From NCBI GenBank assembly GCA_035557795.1, contig DATMDM010000098.1, positions 1 to 62,689 of the forward strand: 62,689 nt of DNA, given 5' to 3'. The stretch comes from Thermoplasmata archaeon. GTDB taxonomy: Archaea > Thermoplasmatota > Thermoplasmata > RBG-16-68-12. The position numbers and the translations under genes were made by a program. The notes under the pieces were generated by a model that made no database searches, was not told the origin of the DNA, and saw only the letters and a program-made list of their open reading frames with translations. Shown here in pieces: positions 2,966-46,740 of this stretch. Within the stretch, counting starts at the first letter, position 1. Every line of letters begins with the position of its first letter.

Positions 2966-3127
2966 CTAATCCGGGTGGTCCCGGCATCGGACCTTCATGA
3001 CGCCGTCCCCGACCAGACGCCACTCGCATCCGCAGTCGAACCGTGCGGCGACGACTCGCGTCTTCGTCGCCGGGAACCGGAAGTCCATCGCGTCGCTCAG
3101 ACCCAATTCCACCGCCGTGACGGTCAT
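2966..3127 (-). CDS. Small hypothetical protein (53 aa), possibly translationally coupled to the glycosyltransferase
   Basis: The ATG at 3127 overlaps the GT2 stop (ATGA overlap at 3124-3127). Sequence MTVTAVELGLSDAMDFRFPATKTRVVAARFDCGCEWRLVGDGVMKVRCRDHPD. No recognisable family. Confidence 0.3.
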   Translation of the reverse strand: MTVTAVELGLSDAMDFRFPATKTRVVAARFDCGCEWRLVGDGVMKVRCRDHPD

Positions 3128-4119
3128 TGATCCACCGCCCTCCCCACTTGCGTCGTCACGGGGGAGCGTTGCAGCTCGCGGGTGTCCCGCGGGTTCAACC
3201 GCCGCATGAGAAGGCGCCACGCAATGAGGAGCCCCGTGCGGAGCGGGATCAGTTTCGCTTCCCCGATCCGGCAGGCGTAGTCGACCGGCAGCTCCTTCAG
3301 GTGCGCTCCGACCTCGCATGCGGATGCAAAGATGTCCGCCTCCAGGTCGAAGCTCTCGGCGGCCAAGCGGAAATGCTGGAGCGCGTCCTCCCGGAATGCC
3401 CACATCCCGGTGCAGACGTCGCTGATCGGGAACCCGAACAGGAATCGGGCGAAGCCGCTCAGGACCTCGTTGCCCAGCCGGTTCAGCGAGGTGAAGGCAC
3501 CGTCCTCGACGCGGCCGCGCAACCGGGAGCCCGCGACGACGTCGCACCCGGATTCCAGGGCCTCGACGAACTCCGGAATCTGTTCTGGGGGATACGTCCC
3601 GTCGGCATCGAGCATGACGTAGAGCCGGGGTCCGGGGATGTGCTGACGACTCCGATCGTTCATCAGGTGATCCAGCGCCTGGCGGACGCCGTTCCCCTTC
3701 CCGGCGCCGCTCTGCACGTAGATGCTCGCCCCGCGGTCCCTAGCGACCTCCGGGGTCCCGTCGACGGACTGGCCGTCCACGACCCAGACGTACACGTCGT
3801 AACCGGCACGCTTCAGCGATTCCATCGGGATTCGCTCGATGACCGATCCGACGGCCATCTCCTCATTGAGGGCCGGGAGCAGGACCACAATACTGCGTGT
3901 CCGGACGCCTTGGGGAGCCAGGTGCCCGCCCGGCCCACGTTCGTCGATGAGAGGTCGGGAACCCCCGAAGATCCCGCCTCCGTCCGGACTCGCCCGAATG
4001 GTCGCTCCCGACCCGGTCATCGGAATGTGTTGTCCGAAGAGGGACCGACGGAACCGCGGTCGAAACGACGGAGACTTTGGCCGACGGTCCTTGACACCTT
4101 TGGCAATCCCGAACCCCAT
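3124..4119 (-). CDS. Family 2 glycosyltransferase (dolichyl-phosphate sugar transferase-like)
   Basis: Motifs VVLLPALNEE, YVMLDADGTYPPE (DxD) and CDVVAGSRL. A GGAGAAGGAAG sequence lies just upstream of ATG 4119. An alternative ATG is at 4020. Confidence 0.85.
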   Translation of the reverse strand: MGFGIAKGVKDRRPKSPSFRPRFRRSLFGQHIPMTGSGATIRASPDGGGIFGGSRPLIDERGPGGHLAPQGVRTRSIVVLLPALNEEMAVGSVIERIPMESLKRAGYDVYVWVVDGQSVDGTPEVARDRGASIYVQSGAGKGNGVRQALDHLMNDRSRQHIPGPRLYVMLDADGTYPPEQIPEFVEALESGCDVVAGSRLRGRVEDGAFTSLNRLGNEVLSGFARFLFGFPISDVCTGMWAFREDALQHFRLAAESFDLEADIFASACEVGAHLKELPVDYACRIGEAKLIPLRTGLLIAWRLLMRRLNPRDTRELQRSPVTTQVGRAVDQ

Positions 4120-9122: not shown

Positions 9123-9177
9123 TCCGGCAGGACGCGCAGCCATCCCGTCAGGATGGCTTCTGATCACGGAAGGAGAG

Positions 9178-9292
9178 TCCCGCCTGCCGGATTTGAACCG
9201 GCGGCCTGATGATGGCAGCGGGCACCGCGCACGCGAACGGGCACGGGAGCACTCTACAGTCACCCGCTCTGACCAGGCTGAGCTAAGGCGGG
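9178..9292 (-). tRNA. tRNA-Tyr (GTA) with a 40-nt intron at the canonical 37/38 position
   Basis: Hand-folded cloverleaf: CCCGCCT/AGGCGGG acceptor, GCTC-AGCCTGGTCA-GAGC D arm, GGTGA-CTGTAG[intron 9214-9253]A-TCATC anticodon arm, GCCGG-TTCAAAT-CCGGC T arm, discriminator A. No encoded CCA. Confidence 0.85.
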
Positions 9293-29776: not shown

Positions 29777-32500
29777 TCAGAGATCGTCGGACGACGCATT
29801 CTCGCCGTTCTGGCCTTCCGAACTCTCGCCTTCCTTGCCTTCGATCGGCTTCTTGATGACGCGCTTCTGCACGATCGGTGCGGGCGCGTTGGTCGGCCCG
29901 GGCGGAGACATCGGCCCGCGGGCCTGGATTCTGCGCGCCGGAGCGCCTGCGACGACCGCTCCACCGCTCGGTGGGCGCTGATCGCGCATCAAGGATCCGC
30001 ACTTGTGGCAGACCGTGGCCGTCACGGAGTTGAGGGTGCCGCACGTCGGGCACGGCTTCGAGCCCATCTTGCGCATCTCCTCTTCCTCGCGGAGCCAGTC
30101 TTCGAAGGTGAGGAAGGTCGGCTGCTTGCGCCACCACTCCTGGAACTCGGTTTCGCTCAGGCTGCGGCCCAGCTGTCGGGAGGCTTCTTGCTTGAAGCGA
30201 GCGATGACCTCGTCGTACTGGAGGCGCATCTTCTCCTTGTAGTCGGCCATCTCGAGCTGACCCGTCGCGAACTCGACGCCGCACTCCGGGCACTGCTTCA
30301 CGTCGACCGGGATCCAGGCCTGGCAGTTCGAGCACTTCGCCATGTCCCGCTCGAACTCGACCCCGCACTTCGGGCAGGTCGTCGCGTCCTCCGGGATGAA
30401 GGCGCCGCACTCGCCGCACTCGACCATCTTGCCGAGGCCGTAGACTTTCCAGTAGAGCGACACGCCGATCGCGACGGCCGCTGCGGCCGCAAGGATGACC
30501 AGGAAGAGCCACCACTCGATGCCGAGGACCGGGACCTTCTGGAACAGGAAGGACGACGATCTCTGCACGGAGATCGTGCGGGTGTCCGGCTGAATCAGTG
30601 TGGTCGCCGGCGTCACGACGATCGTGTACGACCCGTCCTGGGTGGTCTGGGGCACCGTGATCGTCCCGATGAAGAAGCCGTCACTCGCCGACATCGTGGA
30701 GTTCGTCGCGAGGACCGTGGCGCCGCTGCGCAGCTCGATGTTCAGGACGACGCCGCCGATGCCGTTCGAGCCCGAGTCCCGAACGTATCCCGTGACGCCA
30801 AGCGAGTTGCCGGAGACGACGGATTGGCCGCTCGACGGGGTCAGAATCGCGGTGAACCCGGCCGGCGGTGGCTGGACGGTCAAGGTGATGTTGGCGAAGT
30901 TGTTGCTCTCCTGCGCGGCTCCGCCCTCGTTGATCGTGTTGTCCGGGTCGACGATGAGCTCGAGCGTGTGCGACCCGAGGGCGCCGATGCCGGCCACGTT
31001 CAACGTCTGGTTCAGGGACGTGACGACCGTCAGGCCGTTCACCCGGGCGACCTCGCTCGCGCGGTTTCCGTCAAGGTAGGCCCCGACCGAGACCGCCGTC
31101 GCGGTGGTCTGCCCCTGGTTCGAAATCAGGGCGTATGCCGTGAAGGGCTGGTTCTGCAGGACCGTCATCGTGGCGCTCGCCGGCTGCACGGTCAGGTCTG
31201 GTCCCGTGCGCACCTGTACAGGGAGGGACACCGAGACCTGCTTCGTGTTGTTGTCCGCGTTGATCGCCGGGTACGGGTCGAAATTCACGCCGCCCGGGCC
31301 CGTCGTCGCGCCAAAGGCGATCGTCAGCTGGTAGTTGCCGAACGATTCCGCGTTCGGTAGGCTCGCGGTCGTGATCAGGTCCGTGTACAACGGGATTGTG
31401 GCGAGGCCGTTCGCATCCGTGCGGTTCCACGCGTTCGCGCCGCTCGCGGCCTTCCCGAGGTACGAGAGGGTCCGCGCGCTCGGCGTCGTGGAGAGACCGT
31501 TGTCCGGATACTGGGCGGTCGTCGTGCTCGGACTGAGGGTCGACCAAATCGTCGCGCCGCTCACCGGGAACCCGGTCGAATCGATGACGGAGGCCCGGAG
31601 CCACCGCAAGAGGAACACGTTTCCGCCCGCGGCCTGCGGCACGTACGCGGGCTGCCACGACGACTTGAGGACGGGGTCCTCGGTTCGGTCGACCGTGACG
31701 TTGTACAGGTACGCGTTCGAGGTTCCGTCGACCTGCAGCGTGTTATGCAGCCCGAGGACGTTGGAGAAGTCGACTCCGATGTACGTGTCGTACGCAAACA
31801 GGTTGCTGGTGGCGGTCAAGCCAAGGTTGCCTTCGACGGGGCCCGTGGCATTGCCGCTGGGCGCGCTCGCGTTCTCATAGATCCGTTCGATTCGGGATCC
31901 GTAGAGGCTCGCGGTCGTGGACGCCCAGGAGATCAACGGACTGTCGTCGTTGTCGTCCTGATACACTCCGACGCCGAAGAGCTCGGTCGATGTGAAACCG
32001 GTGATTCGCGAGCCGGTGATGTCGATCGTCGCGCCGGTCGCGTTGAACCAACCGGGGAATTTCACGGTCGCGCCGTTCTTCATCGCGAAGTGGCTGCCCG
32101 CGCCCGAGACTGTGAAGGCGAGCTTCAGGTACGGCTTGATTGCATCCGTCTGGGTCGTGACGATCGAGTGGTCGAGGACCAGTTCGCCGCCCGCGTTCAC
32201 GTTGAGCGCGTAGCCTTCATGAGCCGTATCCTTGGAGAAACTCAAACCTCCGTTGACCAGCGTGAGGCTGCCTCCGGAGTTGATGTTGATCGAACCGTCG
32301 ACCGAGTAGACGATTCCTGTGCACACCTGAGTCGTGGTGACCGTCCAGGTCCCGGTGATGACGCCACCGACCTGGTCGCAGGTTCCGGCCCGTGCGGCCG
32401 GGCTGAGTGCCACAAAGGCGGCGAAGAGGCCACCCAGGGCGACGGACCAAATGATCAAACACGTCAGGGCCTTCCCATTCCGTTCGGATCGGCTAGACAA
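29777..32500 (-). CDS. Giant type I surface protein with cytoplasmic triple zinc-ribbon tail (paralog 2)
   Basis: Start re-set to TTG 32500 by alignment with paralog 1 (TTGTCTAGC vs ATGTCTAGT, (M)SSRSERNGKALTCLIIWS vs MSSRAGRSARAPTLLIVWS), with AGGAGG 8 nt upstream. 907 aa. It has the same head, one CARDB-like module, a TM helix and the tail. Confidence 0.85.
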   Translation of the reverse strand: MSSRSERNGKALTCLIIWSVALGGLFAAFVALSPAARAGTCDQVGGVITGTWTVTTTQVCTGIVYSVDGSININSGGSLTLVNGGLSFSKDTAHEGYALNVNAGGELVLDHSIVTTQTDAIKPYLKLAFTVSGAGSHFAMKNGATVKFPGWFNATGATIDITGSRITGFTSTELFGVGVYQDDNDDSPLISWASTTASLYGSRIERIYENASAPSGNATGPVEGNLGLTATSNLFAYDTYIGVDFSNVLGLHNTLQVDGTSNAYLYNVTVDRTEDPVLKSSWQPAYVPQAAGGNVFLLRWLRASVIDSTGFPVSGATIWSTLSPSTTTAQYPDNGLSTTPSARTLSYLGKAASGANAWNRTDANGLATIPLYTDLITTASLPNAESFGNYQLTIAFGATTGPGGVNFDPYPAINADNNTKQVSVSLPVQVRTGPDLTVQPASATMTVLQNQPFTAYALISNQGQTTATAVSVGAYLDGNRASEVARVNGLTVVTSLNQTLNVAGIGALGSHTLELIVDPDNTINEGGAAQESNNFANITLTVQPPPAGFTAILTPSSGQSVVSGNSLGVTGYVRDSGSNGIGGVVLNIELRSGATVLATNSTMSASDGFFIGTITVPQTTQDGSYTIVVTPATTLIQPDTRTISVQRSSSFLFQKVPVLGIEWWLFLVILAAAAAVAIGVSLYWKVYGLGKMVECGECGAFIPEDATTCPKCGVEFERDMAKCSNCQAWIPVDVKQCPECGVEFATGQLEMADYKEKMRLQYDEVIARFKQEASRQLGRSLSETEFQEWWRKQPTFLTFEDWLREEEEMRKMGSKPCPTCGTLNSVTATVCHKCGSLMRDQRPPSGGAVVAGAPARRIQARGPMSPPGPTNAPAPIVQKRVIKKPIEGKEGESSEGQNGENASSDDL
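30264..30454 (-). repeat. Near-identical block shared with 21834-22024
   Basis: See the partner feature. Confidence 0.8.
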
Positions 32501-45025: not shown

Positions 45026-45109
45026 GACCGATCGGCCGCACGGCATGGAAACAACGGGTCGAAAGCCACCGCAGGCATTCGAACGGCAGATGCCTCCGGT
45101 AAAAGTGGG

Positions 45110-45151
45110 AGCCGCCAGAGGGCTTCGATCCCCCGACCTGCAGTTTACGAA
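45110..45151 (-). pseudogene. 3' half of a disrupted tRNA-Thr(CGT) (copy A)
   Basis: TTCGTAA-ACTGC-AGGTC-GGGGG-ATCGAAG-CCCTC-TGGCGGC-T. The acceptor 3' strand is complementary to the 5' half at 46540-46578. Confidence 0.65.
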
Positions 45152-45189
45152 TTTGTCGTTTGCACAAACACCTACGATTTGAGAGTAGG

Positions 45190-45293
45190 AGCCGCCTGAG
45201 GGCTTTGCTCCCTCGACCTGCAGTTCCTTCGGTGCAAGCGTCTTCCGCCTGCGCATACGAAACTGCCGCTCTGCTGGGCTGAGCTAAGGCGGC
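45190..45293 (-). tRNA. tRNA-Thr (CGT), copy B, with a 30-nt intron at 37/38 and a non-canonical T-loop
   Basis: GCCGCCT-TA-GCTC-AGCCCAGCA-GAGC-G-GCAGT-TTCGTA[intron 45226-45255]A-ACTGC-AGGTC-GAGGG-AGCAAAG-CCCTC-AGGCGGC-T. TTCG in the loop can pair with CGAA in the intron, leaving 3-nt bulges at both junctions (bulge-helix-bulge-like). Confidence 0.65.
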
Positions 45294-45646
45294 GCAAGTC
45301 GCCCAGAATCCTGCGGTGGTTATCAAGGCTACGGCACGAGGAGCCGCTGGCCCAAGGCGCTGTCCTCAACGGTTGAAAGCGTTCGAAGGCTGGTTTGATG
45401 GGTGACTATCGGTCTAGTCCCGGCCTGACTGCCATCTAGACAGGCAGTTGGAACCTGATCATCGGTGTGTCGCAAGAGCCGGTCCGCGGGTGAACTTGTG
45501 TCGCTTAGCCATCCCGCAGGTCGCGGACCAGGTACCCCAATCCTCGCCACGCAACCTATTAGCCGGAGAGTCAAGCTGAAACCATCCAGCGCGATTATGG
45601 AACGCTGAGGGCCTTGGACGGGCGAGACAACACGATTGGCCGGAAC

Positions 45647-46417
45647 ATGATTCTTGTAGTCCTTGAAGGAGACGGCCCACTCAAAGAAATGACCCTCAGT
45701 GGCGCAGTGGTTGGAGACGCCAAGTCGAAGGTTAGCCCTGGGACCGCGTACATCGTACGGATGGAAGAGCGCTCGGAAGATGCTCTCAGAATTTACACTC
45801 CCGACCCACGATTCCTCCTGGTTGATCTCGAGGACCTCCCTGCCATGCGCCTTCCAGGCATGCCCGATTACATTGGCGGCGCATTCGTCCGTCTTCATGC
45901 CAAAACATCCTACGGCGACGATCAGGAGTCTTCCGTGTTCAGCAAGTTCCTAGGGACCGCAGAAGTCGTAGAGCGTGAGGGGCAACGCCTACTCTCGACA
46001 CCTCGCGCTGCTTACGAACAGGCCGCAAACGAGATGATCGCATATGCGATGGACTTGCATCGCATCAAGTTGGAGATCGGAATCGCGTCGTTACGTGACG
46101 CGGCCACCGTAATGATTGAGATGGCTCCACCGGGCGGGTATTCCTCGCTGCCCCTTGGAAGGGCGATTTTTCTGTGGGGTTCGTTCCTGGGAGAATGCAT
46201 CTTAAAGGAGTTCGAGGGACGATGGTTTCAAGACCCCAAGATCGGAGAGCTAGTGCTAGTACCGCGGGGGCCACTGCCTCCAGCCAAGGTGTCTCCGTTT
46301 CGGATCGCAGAACGACTTATTCGTAGAAAGGAAGGCGCAGTTGCGGTCTTGGCCTGGCTGGAACGAGTTAAGGAGGCGAAGGCTTCCACGGAGTTCGCGC
46401 CCCCACTGGTGAGGTAG
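45647..46417 (+). CDS. Hypothetical protein inside the lower-GC insert
   Basis: First ATG of the 45614 ORF. Balanced amino-acid composition and no recognisable motif. Partly antisense to ORF 45329..45898. Confidence 0.45.
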   Translation: MILVVLEGDGPLKEMTLSGAVVGDAKSKVSPGTAYIVRMEERSEDALRIYTPDPRFLLVDLEDLPAMRLPGMPDYIGGAFVRLHAKTSYGDDQESSVFSKFLGTAEVVEREGQRLLSTPRAAYEQAANEMIAYAMDLHRIKLEIGIASLRDAATVMIEMAPPGGYSSLPLGRAIFLWGSFLGECILKEFEGRWFQDPKIGELVLVPRGPLPPAKVSPFRIAERLIRRKEGAVAVLAWLERVKEAKASTEFAPPLVR

Positions 46418-46539
46418 CACTCTTTGGGTCTTCGATCTTTCAGACCCCGAATTGACATTCGCAAGTTCTGGTCTCCTGCTCTAGCCGCTGATAACGTCCG
46501 TCTAATGGGTAGAAAAATCTGTAGCGTCGTCTCGACAGA

Positions 46540-46578
46540 TTACGAAACTGCCGCTCTGCCGGGCTGAGCTATGGCGGC
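46540..46578 (-). pseudogene. 5' half of the disrupted tRNA-Thr(CGT) (copy A)
   Basis: GCCGCCA-TA-GCTC-AGCCCGGCA-GAGC-G-GCAGT-TTCGTAA, followed by the hairpin AATCTGT-cgagacgacgct-ACAGATT (46516-46541). Confidence 0.65.
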
Positions 46579-46583
46579 ATTTG

Positions 46584-46649
46584 CGCGATCGCTGCGGTAC
46601 AGGCGGTAAGGCGGAGGATCCGCTCCAACCGGCTGAGCTACGGTCGCGC
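46584..46649 (-). other. tRNA-like fragment (acceptor strand plus D arm only) closed by a 6-bp helix
   Basis: GCGACCG-TA-GCTC-AGCCGGTTG-GAGC, then sequence that I could not fold into anticodon or T arms. GCGCGA (46649-46644) pairs with TCGCGC (46589-46584). A TCTTTAT TATA-like box lies about 30 nt upstream on the minus strand. Confidence 0.3.
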
Positions 46650-46740
46650 GAGCGGAAGGAAAAGCTCCCACGCCATAAAGATTCCGAGGACATCCGCAGC
46701 CCCCGGACAACGTTTAAACGCGACCCGACCATCGCGCGGT

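What the first reader, a model, noticed from the sequence alone, without database searches (positions are those of the whole stretch)
45110..46578. tRNA-Thr(CGU) gene split in its anticodon loop by a 1.39-kb lower-GC insert carrying a replacement tRNA-Thr(CGU)
On the minus strand, a perfect 5' half (GCCGCCA...GCAGT-TTCGTAA, 46578-46540) and a matching 3' half (TTCGTAA-ACTGC...TGGCGGC-T, 45151-45110) are separated by 1388 bp. The acceptor strands are complementary (GCCGCCA/TGGCGGC). The 7-nt loop sequence TTCGTAA is present at both junctions, like a target-site duplication or att core.

The insert has visibly lower GC. It holds one or two orphan ORFs. At its proximal end it carries a complete second tRNA-Thr(CGT) (45190-45293) with a compensating acceptor change (GCCGCCT/AGGCGGC) and a 30-nt intron that can form a bulge-helix-bulge-like structure (TTCG/CGAA helix with 3-nt bulges).

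The best reading is a decayed integrated element that disrupted the host tRNA and supplies a substitute. Both Thr T-loops are odd (ATCGAAG and AGCAAAG) compared with TTCAAAT and TTCGAGC in the Tyr and Phe tRNAs of this window. Copy B therefore lacks the canonical T54-T55 positions, which raises the question of which copy is functional.
Basis: partly seen in the sequence, partly recalled or inferred. Interest (0 to 1): 0.65.

Follow-up and report, generated by a model that had tools for sequence, protein, structure and literature searches.

The report
Integrated element overwrites threonine tRNA gene
A soil archaeon's only visible tRNA-Thr(CGU) gene has been cut in two by a small, integrase-less relic of a 23-kb integrating element that brings its own intron-containing copy of the same tRNA, and leftover fragments show that this "break and replace" has happened at least twice at this spot.

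Summary
On the minus strand, 46578-46540 and 45151-45110 join into a perfect 74-nt tRNA-Thr(CGU). This is 74/74 identical to the uninterrupted gene at the same locus in a related soil Thermoplasmata genome. The 1388-bp insert carries an intron-bearing tRNA-Thr(CGU) (copy B, 45293-45190; Rfam 40.7 bits; bulge-helix-bulge intron).

The insert is a miniature, integrase-less member of an element family. A sister species carries a 23.2-kb element at the same site with the same ends. It has a tyrosine integrase beside the left junction and copy B beside the right junction. The anticodon loop TTCGTAA is the crossover core.

Unlike described tRNA-targeting elements, this one does not rebuild the resident tRNA. 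It carries a complete substitute with its own promoter. The intron of B breaks the integrase target.

Relatives show every stage: empty site, full element, mini inserts with different cargo, and "collapsed" loci where B sits behind the host promoter. The window also holds decayed halves of an older, canonical tRNA-Thr around copy A, giving three nested generations.

The split or giant-intron reading is rejected, because no bulge-helix-bulge can form at the outer junctions. This is a new variant of a known kind. No RNA data show which tRNA matures.

The parts
46673..46681 (-). TATA-like box (TCTTTATGG) of the ancestral tRNA-Thr(CGU) promoter
   Evidence: The same motif directly precedes the uninterrupted tRNA in L015, L016, L038 and L044. 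Coordinates. Promoter function is inferred.
46620..46647 (-). Decayed 5' remnant (28 nt, acceptor strand plus D arm) of the oldest, canonical tRNA-Thr(CGU) ('generation 0')
   Evidence: It aligns with positions 1-28 of the GCCACCG-type tRNA of L012, L015 and others, with 2 mismatches.
46579..46619 (-). Leader of copy A, related to the leader of copy B
   Evidence: Local alignment with the B leader scores 40; 1 of 1000 shuffles reaches this.
46540..46578 (-). 5' half of tRNA-Thr(CGU) copy A, ending in the anticodon loop TTCGTAA (attL core 46540-46546)
   Evidence: 100% identical to the uninterrupted L030 gene.
46493..46539 (-). Left arm of the element: imperfect inverted repeat TCTGTCG, a small hairpin and a T5 run
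   Evidence: About 81-90% identical to the left end of the 23-kb element next to its integrase. Homologous ends are present in L010, L088 and L090. A terminator role is inferred.
45647..46417 (+). Cargo gene ORF-X (256 aa; alternative start at 45614 gives 267 aa), function unknown
   Evidence: Homologues at 42-77% identity. No Pfam or PHROG match. AlphaFold2 pLDDT 80; best PDB fold match is 3hlz_A, of unknown function. Not present in the 23-kb element.
45294..45361 (-). Conserved leader of copy B with TATA-like CCTTGATAACC (45318-45328)
   Evidence: The 54-68 nt upstream of B are conserved in all full inserts and in the 23-kb element. Promoter function is inferred.
45190..45293 (-). tRNA-Thr(CGU) copy B: exon 1 45293-45256, intron 45255-45226, exon 2 45225-45190
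   Evidence: Rfam 40.7 bits. Bulge-helix-bulge motif. Across 11 variants the exons vary at only one compensatory pair.
45152..45189 (-). Right arm of the element, ending in CAAACGACAAA
   Evidence: Present after B in all 26 copies. 20 of 38 positions vary, but the terminal CAAACGACA is kept.
45110..45151 (-). 3' half of copy A, starting with the second TTCGTAA (attR core 45145-45151)
45064..45105 (-). Decayed 3' remnant (anticodon-arm to acceptor, TTCGAATGCCTGCGGTGGCT best kept) of the generation-0 tRNA
   Evidence: Local alignment with positions 35-74 of the GCCACCG-type tRNA scores 49. The acceptor CGGTGGC complements the 5' remnant.

Best explanation
The 1388-bp insert is a miniature, integrase-less derivative of a family of integrative elements of soil Thermoplasmata. 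These elements recombine with the anticodon loop of the tRNA-Thr(CGU) gene.

**Full-length member (23,199 bp).** From left to right it carries:
- the left end;
- a 409-aa tyrosine integrase;
- a D5-type primase-helicase;
- a serine recombinase;
- many small genes;
- a methylase / UDG / ThyA-like module;
- the B leader, tRNA B and the right end.

**Proposed mechanism.**
- Strand exchange takes place in the 7-nt loop TTCGTAA. The attB arms are GCAGT/ACTGC. The inferred attP arms, CGACAGT/ACTGTCG, mimic the anticodon stem.
- The resident gene is split and is not rebuilt.
- The element supplies a complete tRNA-Thr(CGU) with its own promoter. Its 37/38 intron destroys the right half of the core, so B cannot be attacked by the integrase.
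- Later deletions remove the integrase and cargo, giving mini inserts such as the one in the window. Some deletions remove everything up to B, giving 'collapsed' loci. The orphan halves then decay.
- The window shows three generations. An ancestral canonical tRNA (remnants only) was replaced by A, and A was split by the element carrying B.

**What is shown.** Anatomy, empty sites, the full-length element, the intermediate states, the nesting, and the conservation of B.

**What is inferred.** Catalysis by the integrase at the loop, B being the only working copy, the intron acting as a shield, and the T-run acting as a terminator.
For: - **Halves and empty site.** The joined halves match the uninterrupted gene of L030 (74/74). 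Uninterrupted genes are also present in L009, L044, L026 and L020.
- **Recurrence.** The same junctions and copy B occur in L010 and L012 and in 24 metagenome loci, always in tRNA-Thr(CGU).
- **Full-length element.** It sits at the same site on WNGH01000796.1 and at least 5 other assemblies. Its attL is GGCAGT|TTCGTAA|TCTGTCGGGACGG, followed by a PF00589 integrase at 71.8 bits.
- **Shared arms.** The window insert shares 47 nt on the left and about 210 nt on the right with the full-length element.
- **Deletion derivative.** L090 keeps 32 integrase codons.
- **Tree of the neighbouring gene.** On the GlyRS tree, L010 (insert) is sister to L030 (empty). One tight clade holds native, filled and collapsed states. 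The hosts of the full element, the mini insert and the empty site are about 92.5% identical to each other.
- **Polymorphism in one sample.** In run X1 the flanks lie at 15-16x and the insert at 6.3x, and a contig joins 45144 to 46540.
- **Conservation of B.** B exons vary at 2 of 74 positions (one compensatory pair), against 20 of 38 positions in the right arm.
- **Collapsed loci.** B sits directly behind the host promoter in L089, L092, L095, L103, L105 and L111.
- **Outer remnants** of an older tRNA flank copy A.
- **Literature.** The anticodon loop plus stem equals the 7-bp overlap plus core sites of tyrosine recombinases (PMC8371274).
Against: - The window's own insert holds no integrase.
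- No excised circle or attP junction was found.
- ORF-X and the other mini-insert cargo genes are absent from the one full-length element recovered. The direct parent of the window's insert is therefore unknown.
- Positions 22-49 are identical in all three tRNA types. Spread of a filled allele by homologous recombination would leave the same junctions.
- B has A54 and G55, which is very unusual for a working elongator tRNA, and it scores only 40.7 bits.
- Metatranscriptome contigs over B are low-depth, unspliced and from relatives.
- The 24-nt search pattern fixed part of exon 2 by ascertainment.
Confidence: 0.8

Rival explanations
1. The mini insert is not a dead relic. It is a non-autonomous cassette that is still moved in and out of the tRNA by an integrase supplied in trans. 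It consists of the conserved arms, variable cargo and tRNA B, much as a MITE relates to a transposon or a CIME to an ICE.
For: - Both arms and the core are intact in every mini insert, while the cargo differs.
- Filled and apparently empty alleles with identical flanks coexist in run X1.
- Filled and empty sites alternate among sister genomes.
- Earlier AI notes report integrase-less cassettes at tRNA-Glu in the same genome (untested).
Against: - No circle junction was seen.
- L090 shows plain deletion decay.
- The presence/absence pattern is equally explained by independent integrations followed by deletions, or by strain mixtures.
- No integrase is known in this genome.
Confidence: 0.3
2. 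This particular copy arrived by homologous recombination with DNA from a relative that already had the filled locus. The conserved tRNA halves or the flanking genes served as arms, with no site-specific event in this lineage.
For: - tRNA positions 22-49 are identical in all types, so short-arm recombination would be scarless.
- The dinucleotides next to the loop are mosaic between host-like and element-like among copies.
- The B leader and B are 100% identical between the window and L010, although their host genes are about 82% identical.
Against: The arms are only 17 and 11-18 nt of identity. The element family has a dedicated integrase and a stem-loop-mimicking attP. The cargo in the window is unique among the recovered copies.
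Confidence: 0.12
3. The two A halves form a true split or giant-intron tRNA and are joined at the RNA level. B is a redundant paralogue.
For: The sequences next to the two loop copies can pair: 7 bp, then a 3x3 loop, then 3+5 bp in the window (9 bp in L010). Recently split tRNAs a few kb apart are known in Desulfurococcales (PMC3218864).
Against: - No 4-bp helix with two 3-nt bulges can yield the mature tRNA. Because the repeat is identical on both strands, that helix would need a self-complementary 4-mer, and none exists.
- A T5 run follows the 5' half.
- Relatives have the uninterrupted gene.
- In collapsed loci the orphan 3' halves accumulate mutations.
- The insert is an integrase element in a sister species.
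Confidence: 0.03
4. The arrangement is an assembly chimera of two strains' tRNA loci.
For: The tRNA halves are short repeats. One metagenome contig (L101) does look chimeric, with a generation-0 5' half and an A-type 3' half.
Against: The same junctions appear in an independent ENA contig, in a 1448-nt Logan contig spanning 45122-46569, and in dozens of other assemblies.
Confidence: 0.01

Closest known systems
Caldiarchaeum subterraneum tRNA-Thr(GGU) locus heterogeneity (Sugahara et al. 2012, PMC3293823)
   Same: A natural archaeal population shows a tRNA-Thr 5' fragment, an insert of about 1.8 kb, and then a complete tRNA-Thr carrying an extra intron. The authors proposed that a mobile element delivered the intron and that the intron protects against further integration.
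   Different: There the working tRNA is a hybrid rebuilt from an attP-borne 5' part and the host 3' part. No full-length element or recognisable integrase was found. Here the element carries a whole tRNA gene with its own promoter. The resident 3' half is left orphaned downstream. A full-length element with a tyrosine integrase was recovered, and three nested generations are visible.
Classical tRNA-targeting tyrosine-integrase elements of Archaea (SSV1, pNOB8, pTN3, pT26-2 types; review PMC8371274) and cryptic integrated elements of Thaumarchaeota (PMC6563490)
   Same: A tyrosine integrase lies next to an att site, and the integrase is left intact after integration (non-suicidal). The anticodon loop serves as the 7-bp overlap with stem-like core arms. 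The att core is short (11-15 nt; Thaumarchaeota median 17 bp). Integrase occurs together with a D5-type primase-helicase.
   Different: The review states that all described integrations reconstitute an uninterrupted tRNA from a partial copy in attP. Here nothing is reconstituted at either junction, and a separate, complete, intron-bearing tRNA gene substitutes.
Recently split and trans-spliced tRNAs of Desulfurococcales, Nanoarchaeum and Caldivirga (Chan et al. 2011, PMC3218864)
   Same: tRNA halves lie a few kb apart with some flank complementarity, and an origin through mobile elements has been suggested.
   Different: Those halves form a bulge-helix-bulge and are the only source of that tRNA. 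Here no such motif is possible, a substitute gene is present, and the orphan halves decay in relatives.
Hypothesis that introns or splits protect tRNA genes from integration (Randau and Soll, as cited in PMC3218864 and PMC3293823)
   Same: The intron of B sits inside the 15-nt core (CAGTTTCGTA^AACTG). None of the 26 B copies is invaded, while the intron-less A and generation-0 genes are invaded repeatedly.
   Different: Here the shield would serve the element first, by protecting its own tRNA from its own integrase. This is an inference, not a test.

Membership tests
Tyrosine-recombinase integrative element inserted in a tRNA gene | Element encodes a PF00589 integrase next to an att site | tested here: not met
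   The window's 1388-bp insert has no integrase (tblastn). The 23.2-kb family member at the same site does have one (409 aa, 71.8 bits). The window copy is therefore a derivative, not an autonomous member.
Tyrosine-recombinase integrative element inserted in a tRNA gene | Identical core sequence at both junctions, flanked by dyad-symmetric arms | tested here: met
   TTCGTAA is present at both junctions in all copies. Identity is 11-15 nt in L010 and L119/L113. The inferred attP, CGACAGT TTCGTAA ACTGTCG, mimics the anticodon arm.
Tyrosine-recombinase integrative element inserted in a tRNA gene | Empty target site in close relatives | tested here: met
   L030 (74/74), L009, and L015 for the generation-0 type. 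An empty-site contig is present in runs X1 and X2.
Tyrosine-recombinase integrative element inserted in a tRNA gene | Integration reconstitutes the tRNA from a partial copy carried in attP | tested here: not met
   The left junction continues into non-tRNA sequence, and the right junction is preceded by a 38-nt arm. A whole separate tRNA gene is carried instead.
Tyrosine-recombinase integrative element inserted in a tRNA gene | Excised circular form or attP junction detectable | tested here: inconclusive
   The attP pattern is absent from viral contigs. No 'goes back' joint or left-end loose end was seen in Logan contigs. Contigs drop rare forms and raw reads were not available.
Archaeal intron-containing tRNA (copy B) | Cloverleaf recognised by a covariance model | tested here: met
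   Rfam RF00005 scores 40.7 bits against a gathering score of 29. This is lower than A (58.4) and generation 0 (69.3).
Archaeal intron-containing tRNA (copy B) | Bulge-helix-bulge at the exon-intron borders, giving the mature tRNA | tested here: met
   The central helix is TTCG/CGAA. The bulges are UA^U and GG^A. The outer helix is the 5-bp anticodon stem. The inner helix is 1 bp, a mismatch, then 7 bp. The one variant in the central helix keeps a wobble pair.
Archaeal intron-containing tRNA (copy B) | Mature, spliced, aminoacylated RNA exists | not testable with these tools
   Only low-depth unspliced metatranscriptome contigs from relatives were found. No tRNA-seq is available.
Split / trans-spliced or giant-intron tRNA (copy A) | Bulge-helix-bulge formed by the sequences flanking the two halves | tested here: not met
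   An exhaustive scan finds no 4-bp helix with 3-nt bulges that would give the mature tRNA in the window. L010 has only a bare 4-bp match with no flanking helices.
Split / trans-spliced or giant-intron tRNA (copy A) | Arrangement conserved and halves under selection in relatives | tested here: not met
   Relatives have uninterrupted genes, and orphan halves carry mutations in collapsed loci.
Insertion sequence / MITE with target-site duplication | Terminal inverted repeats, duplication of an arbitrary target, transposase family | tested here: not met
   There is only a 5-7-bp imperfect inverted repeat. Every independent copy uses the same 7 nt of the same tRNA. No transposase is present, and the autonomous relative uses an integrase.

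The most novel reading that the evidence does not exclude
Soil Thermoplasmata host a lineage of integrase elements that practise 'kill and replace' on an essential tRNA gene.

- They split tRNA-Thr(CGU) at the anticodon loop without repairing it.
- They install their own copy, whose intron shields it from the element's own integrase and from later invaders.
- After the ends decay, the host depends on the incoming tRNA.

Repeated waves (canonical, then A, then B; Rfam scores 69, 58 and 41 bits) would then drive both tRNA sequence turnover and intron gain. This would be a direct natural demonstration of the idea that archaeal tRNA introns spread on, and protect against, mobile elements.
Probability: 0.4. 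Interest if true: 0.8.

Novelty: new variant of a known kind. Interest (0 to 1): 0.68.

Why it matters
**Introns and mobile elements.** Integration of mobile elements into tRNA genes is textbook. In every described case the element repairs the gene it enters. Here the element leaves the resident gene broken and substitutes a complete one that carries an intron exactly where the integrase would cut. One set of related genomes offers all the intermediate states: empty site, full element, decayed element, and replaced gene with orphan halves. That gives a concrete, testable case for two long-standing ideas:
- archaeal tRNA introns are delivered by mobile elements;
- those introns protect tRNA genes from integration.

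**Turnover of an essential gene.** The locus also shows that an essential tRNA gene can be overwritten repeatedly by progressively less canonical versions.

**Annotation.** ARAGORN in default mode and the Rfam scan of the whole window both missed B. Such genomes would be scored as lacking tRNA-Thr(CGU), and the halves would be taken for pseudogenes or split tRNAs.

Tried and rejected
- **False tRNA calls.** ARAGORN with long introns also reported tRNA-Arg c[3019,3418] and tRNA-Pro [29868,31139]. Both have poor stems and were rejected as false positives.
- **ORF-X as recombinase or nuclease.** There is no Pfam, PHROG or PDB sequence match. The AlphaFold2 model (pLDDT 80) matches only 3hlz_A, of unknown function, at TM 0.36. 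ORF-X homologues in L001, L002, L004, L006 and L007 are not next to tRNAs or element genes.
- **Free or viral form.** Patterns for the T arm of B and for attP gave 0 hits in viral contigs. No circle joint was seen in Logan contigs. One ENA record named DNA_vOTU_8576 (23,215 nt) carries the element. Its far end could not be fetched, so whether it is circular is unknown.
- **IS or MITE, casposon and IS200/605-type readings.** These were rejected because the target is fixed and because of the integrase relative.
- **Metatranscriptomes.** They gave only unspliced, low-depth contigs from relatives. They do not show which tRNA matures.
- **Literature.** Searches found no description of a nested or replacement tRNA arrangement in Archaea.
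Full report
**1. The observation**

Read on the minus strand, 46578-46540 is GCCGCCATAGCTCAGCCCGGCAGAGCGGCAGT-TTCGTAA. Positions 45151-45110 are TTCGTAA-ACTGCAGGTCGGGGGATCGAAGCCCTCTGGCGGCT. The two pieces lie 1388 bp apart.

ARAGORN with long introns allowed folds them into a clean cloverleaf. It places the break three bases off because of the 7-nt repeat. Default ARAGORN and the Rfam gathering scan of the whole window saw neither this gene nor copy B.

A focused Rfam scan finds copy B at 45293-45190 with 40.7 bits and a 30-nt insertion after position 37. Insert GC is 57.1%, against 60-64.5% in the flanks.

**2. Organism and empty site**

I used the neighbouring GlyRS gene to fetch syntenic loci. 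They come from soil Thermoplasmata MAGs. In all of them tRNA-Thr(CGU) lies between an amidohydrolase-GlyRS pair and a TMEM175 gene.

- L030 has an uninterrupted tRNA that is 74/74 identical to the joined halves.
- L009, L044, L026 and L020 also have uninterrupted genes.

The halves are therefore a recently broken gene.

L010 and L012 have the same split arrangement with copy B (100% and 99% identical). In L012 the broken resident gene is a different, canonical tRNA-Thr(CGU). It has acceptor GCCACCG/CGGTGGC and T loop TTCGAAT. This type ('generation 0') is the common one in the wider lineage.

**3. A recurrent element**

An exact search for the T arm of B in metagenome contigs gave 24 further loci, all in tRNA-Thr(CGU). 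Two layouts recur.

Full inserts read, in order:
- resident 5' half;
- TTCGTAA;
- a conserved left arm ((A/T)CTGTC…TACAGAT plus a pyrimidine run);
- variable cargo;
- a conserved leader of 54-68 nt with CTTGATAA;
- copy B;
- a right arm of about 38 nt ending in CAAACGACA(GT/AA);
- TTCGTAA;
- resident 3' half.

Insert sizes are about 1.1, 1.4, 1.6 and 2.9 kb. Cargo differs between them:
- ORF-X in the window, and a 42%-identical ORF-X in L010;
- a membrane protein in L012;
- that membrane protein plus a RibD_C protein and an unknown protein in L088.

In 'collapsed' loci (L089, L092, L095, L103, L105, L111) the host promoter is followed directly by B, the right arm, TTCGTAA and a mutated generation-0 3' half.

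**4. The autonomous relative**

L109 had more than 7 kb of cargo. Following its methylase gene through the look-up of encoding contigs recovered the whole element. It is on WNGH01000796.1 and at least five other assemblies, and it is 23,199 bp long.

Its left junction is GGCAGT|TTCGTAA|TCTGTCGGGACGGTCCTACAGATTGTTC. About 190 nt further lies a 409-aa tyrosine integrase (PF00589, 71.8 bits). The nearest solved relatives are archaeal XerA proteins. The remaining genes, in order, are:
- a D5-type primase-helicase;
- an HTH protein;
- a PF00239 serine recombinase;
- about ten small ORFs;
- a TFIIB-like protein;
- a 920-aa protein;
- a methylase-Mrr fusion;
- a UDG-family protein;
- a thymidylate-synthase-like protein.

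Then come the B leader, B and the right arm, with the junction CGACAGT|TTCGTAA|ACTGCAGG.

The window's insert shares with this element only the left 47 nt and the right ~210 nt. The L090 mini insert still holds the first 32 integrase codons. At least some mini inserts are therefore deletion derivatives.

**5. Dynamics**

On a GlyRS tree:
- L010 (filled) is sister to L030 (empty), with 100% SH-aLRT support;
- the window groups with L008, and L009 (empty) is nearby;
- one clade with nearly identical GlyRS holds a native generation-0 gene (L015), filled loci (L088, L100) and collapsed loci (L092, L103).

The hosts of the full element (L120), the mini insert (L010) and the empty site (L030) are each about 92.5% identical in the amidohydrolase-GlyRS block.

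In run X1 (97% of the sampled words, probably the source sample) the flank contigs have depth 15-16. The contig spanning 45122-46569 has depth 6.3, and a contig joins 45144 to 46540. This fits a population polymorphic for the insert. The joining contig lies within sequence shared with other species, so it cannot be tied strictly to window-type flanks.

**6. Three generations in the window**

Directly behind the TATA-like TCTTTATGG lies a 28-nt remnant of the generation-0 5' half (46647-46620, 2 mismatches). A decayed generation-0 3' part lies downstream of A (45105-45064; TTCGAATGCCTGCGGTGGCT is best kept).

The 41-46 nt between the 5' remnant and A align with the leader of B (score 40; 1 of 1000 shuffles reaches it). 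A therefore probably arrived on an earlier element of the same family and lost its cargo.

Rfam scores fall with each generation: 69.3, 58.4 and 40.7 bits.

**7. Which copy works**

A cannot be spliced. An exhaustive scan finds no 4-bp helix flanked by two 3-nt bulges that would yield the mature tRNA. With the same repeat on both strands, that helix would have to be a self-complementary 4-mer. A T5 run follows the 5' half.

B has:
- its own conserved leader;
- a TTCG/CGAA central helix with bulges UA^U and GG^A next to the 5-bp anticodon stem;
- exons that vary at only one compensatory pair (7:66) across 11 distinct element variants, while 20 of 38 right-arm positions vary.

One caveat applies. 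24 nt of exon 2 were fixed by the search pattern.

B is the sole copy at the locus in collapsed genomes. Its A54/G55 T loop is odd. It co-occurs with G18 to A in the D loop, which may be a compensating change of the 18-55 contact (inference only). The A54 of copy A is also found in uninterrupted genes of L044, L026, L020 and L025.

**8. Mechanism**

Established knowledge (review PMC8371274) holds that the 7-nt anticodon loop with its stem matches the overlap and core sites of tyrosine recombinases. It also holds that all described integrations rebuild the tRNA.

Here the core is the loop itself, and the inferred attP is a stem-loop mimic (CGACAGT TTCGTAA ACTGTCG). Nothing is rebuilt.

The intron of B interrupts the core (CAGTTTCGTA^AACTG). 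Without it, B would lie 75 nt from attP in direct orientation and could be deleted by the element's own integrase. This 'shield' is an inference. It is consistent with 0 invaded B copies against repeated invasion of the intron-less A and generation-0 genes.

**9. Comparison and novelty**

The closest published case is the Caldiarchaeum tRNA-Thr(GGU) locus (PMC3293823). Differences from it, and from classical integrases and split tRNAs, are listed in Closest known systems.

Earlier AI notes of this scan describe similar 'replacement tRNA cassettes' in Patescibacteria, and integrase-less cassettes at tRNA-Glu in this same genome. I used them only as leads.

I found no paper describing a complete, intron-bearing substitute tRNA carried by an archaeal integrase element, or nested generations of such replacements.

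**10. Limits**

- No RNA proof exists of which tRNA matures.
- No attP circle was found.
- The direct parent of the window's insert and the function of ORF-X are unknown.

Noticed in passing
window 46620-46647 and 45064-45105 (minus strand): Decayed halves of an older, canonical tRNA-Thr(CGU) bracket copy A. The locus therefore holds three nested generations of the same tRNA. This explains the 'promoter-proximal tRNA-like fragment' noted earlier at 46584-46649.
   Followed up: yes
L117 1-21176; L113 10001-14060; L119 3720-5230: The 23.2-kb element carries both a tyrosine integrase and a serine recombinase, plus a TFIIB-like gene. Next to tRNA B it has a methylase-Mrr fusion, a UDG-family protein and a thymidylate-synthase-like protein. 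That trio could be a DNA-modification or anti-restriction module. One ENA record labels the element as a viral OTU, but no capsid or terminase match was found.
   Followed up: partly
window 9177-9292 (minus strand): tRNA-Tyr(GUA) has an intron of about 40 nt (Rfam 53.2 bits). Default ARAGORN misses it, and the ARAGORN intron borders did not give a bulge-helix-bulge in my simple scan.
   Followed up: partly
window 45647-46417 (+) and loci L001, L002, L004, L006, L007, L010: ORF-X is a conserved protein family of about 256-269 aa in soil archaea with no assigned domain. The model has an N-terminal beta domain and a helical C-terminal half, and the best fold match is the uncharacterised BT_1490 (3hlz). 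It occurs both as element cargo and in unrelated contexts.
   Followed up: partly
L101 (metagenome contig WNGJ01067015.1): A generation-0 5' half and an L088-type insert are followed by an A-type 3' half with one extra T. This is either an assembly chimera or a recombinant between two host types.
   Followed up: no
L044, L019, L020, L025, L026 (tRNA loci): A-type tRNA-Thr(CGU), with T loop ATCGAAG, sits directly behind the native promoter in lineages scattered among generation-0 lineages. L018 and L019 are close relatives with different types. This suggests complete, scarless replacements elsewhere in the family.
   Followed up: partly
window 3019-3418 and 29868-31139: ARAGORN with introns of up to 3 kb allowed reports a tRNA-Arg and a tRNA-Pro with 306-nt and 1179-nt 'introns'. 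Both have weak stems and lie in coding sequence, so they are false positives.
   Followed up: partly
window 45092-45371, runs X23-X26: Four soil metatranscriptome runs of one study contain low-depth contigs (92-95% identity, from relatives). They cover the B leader, B with its intron, the right arm and the orphan 3' half. Read-through transcription or DNA carry-over cannot be told apart.
   Followed up: partly
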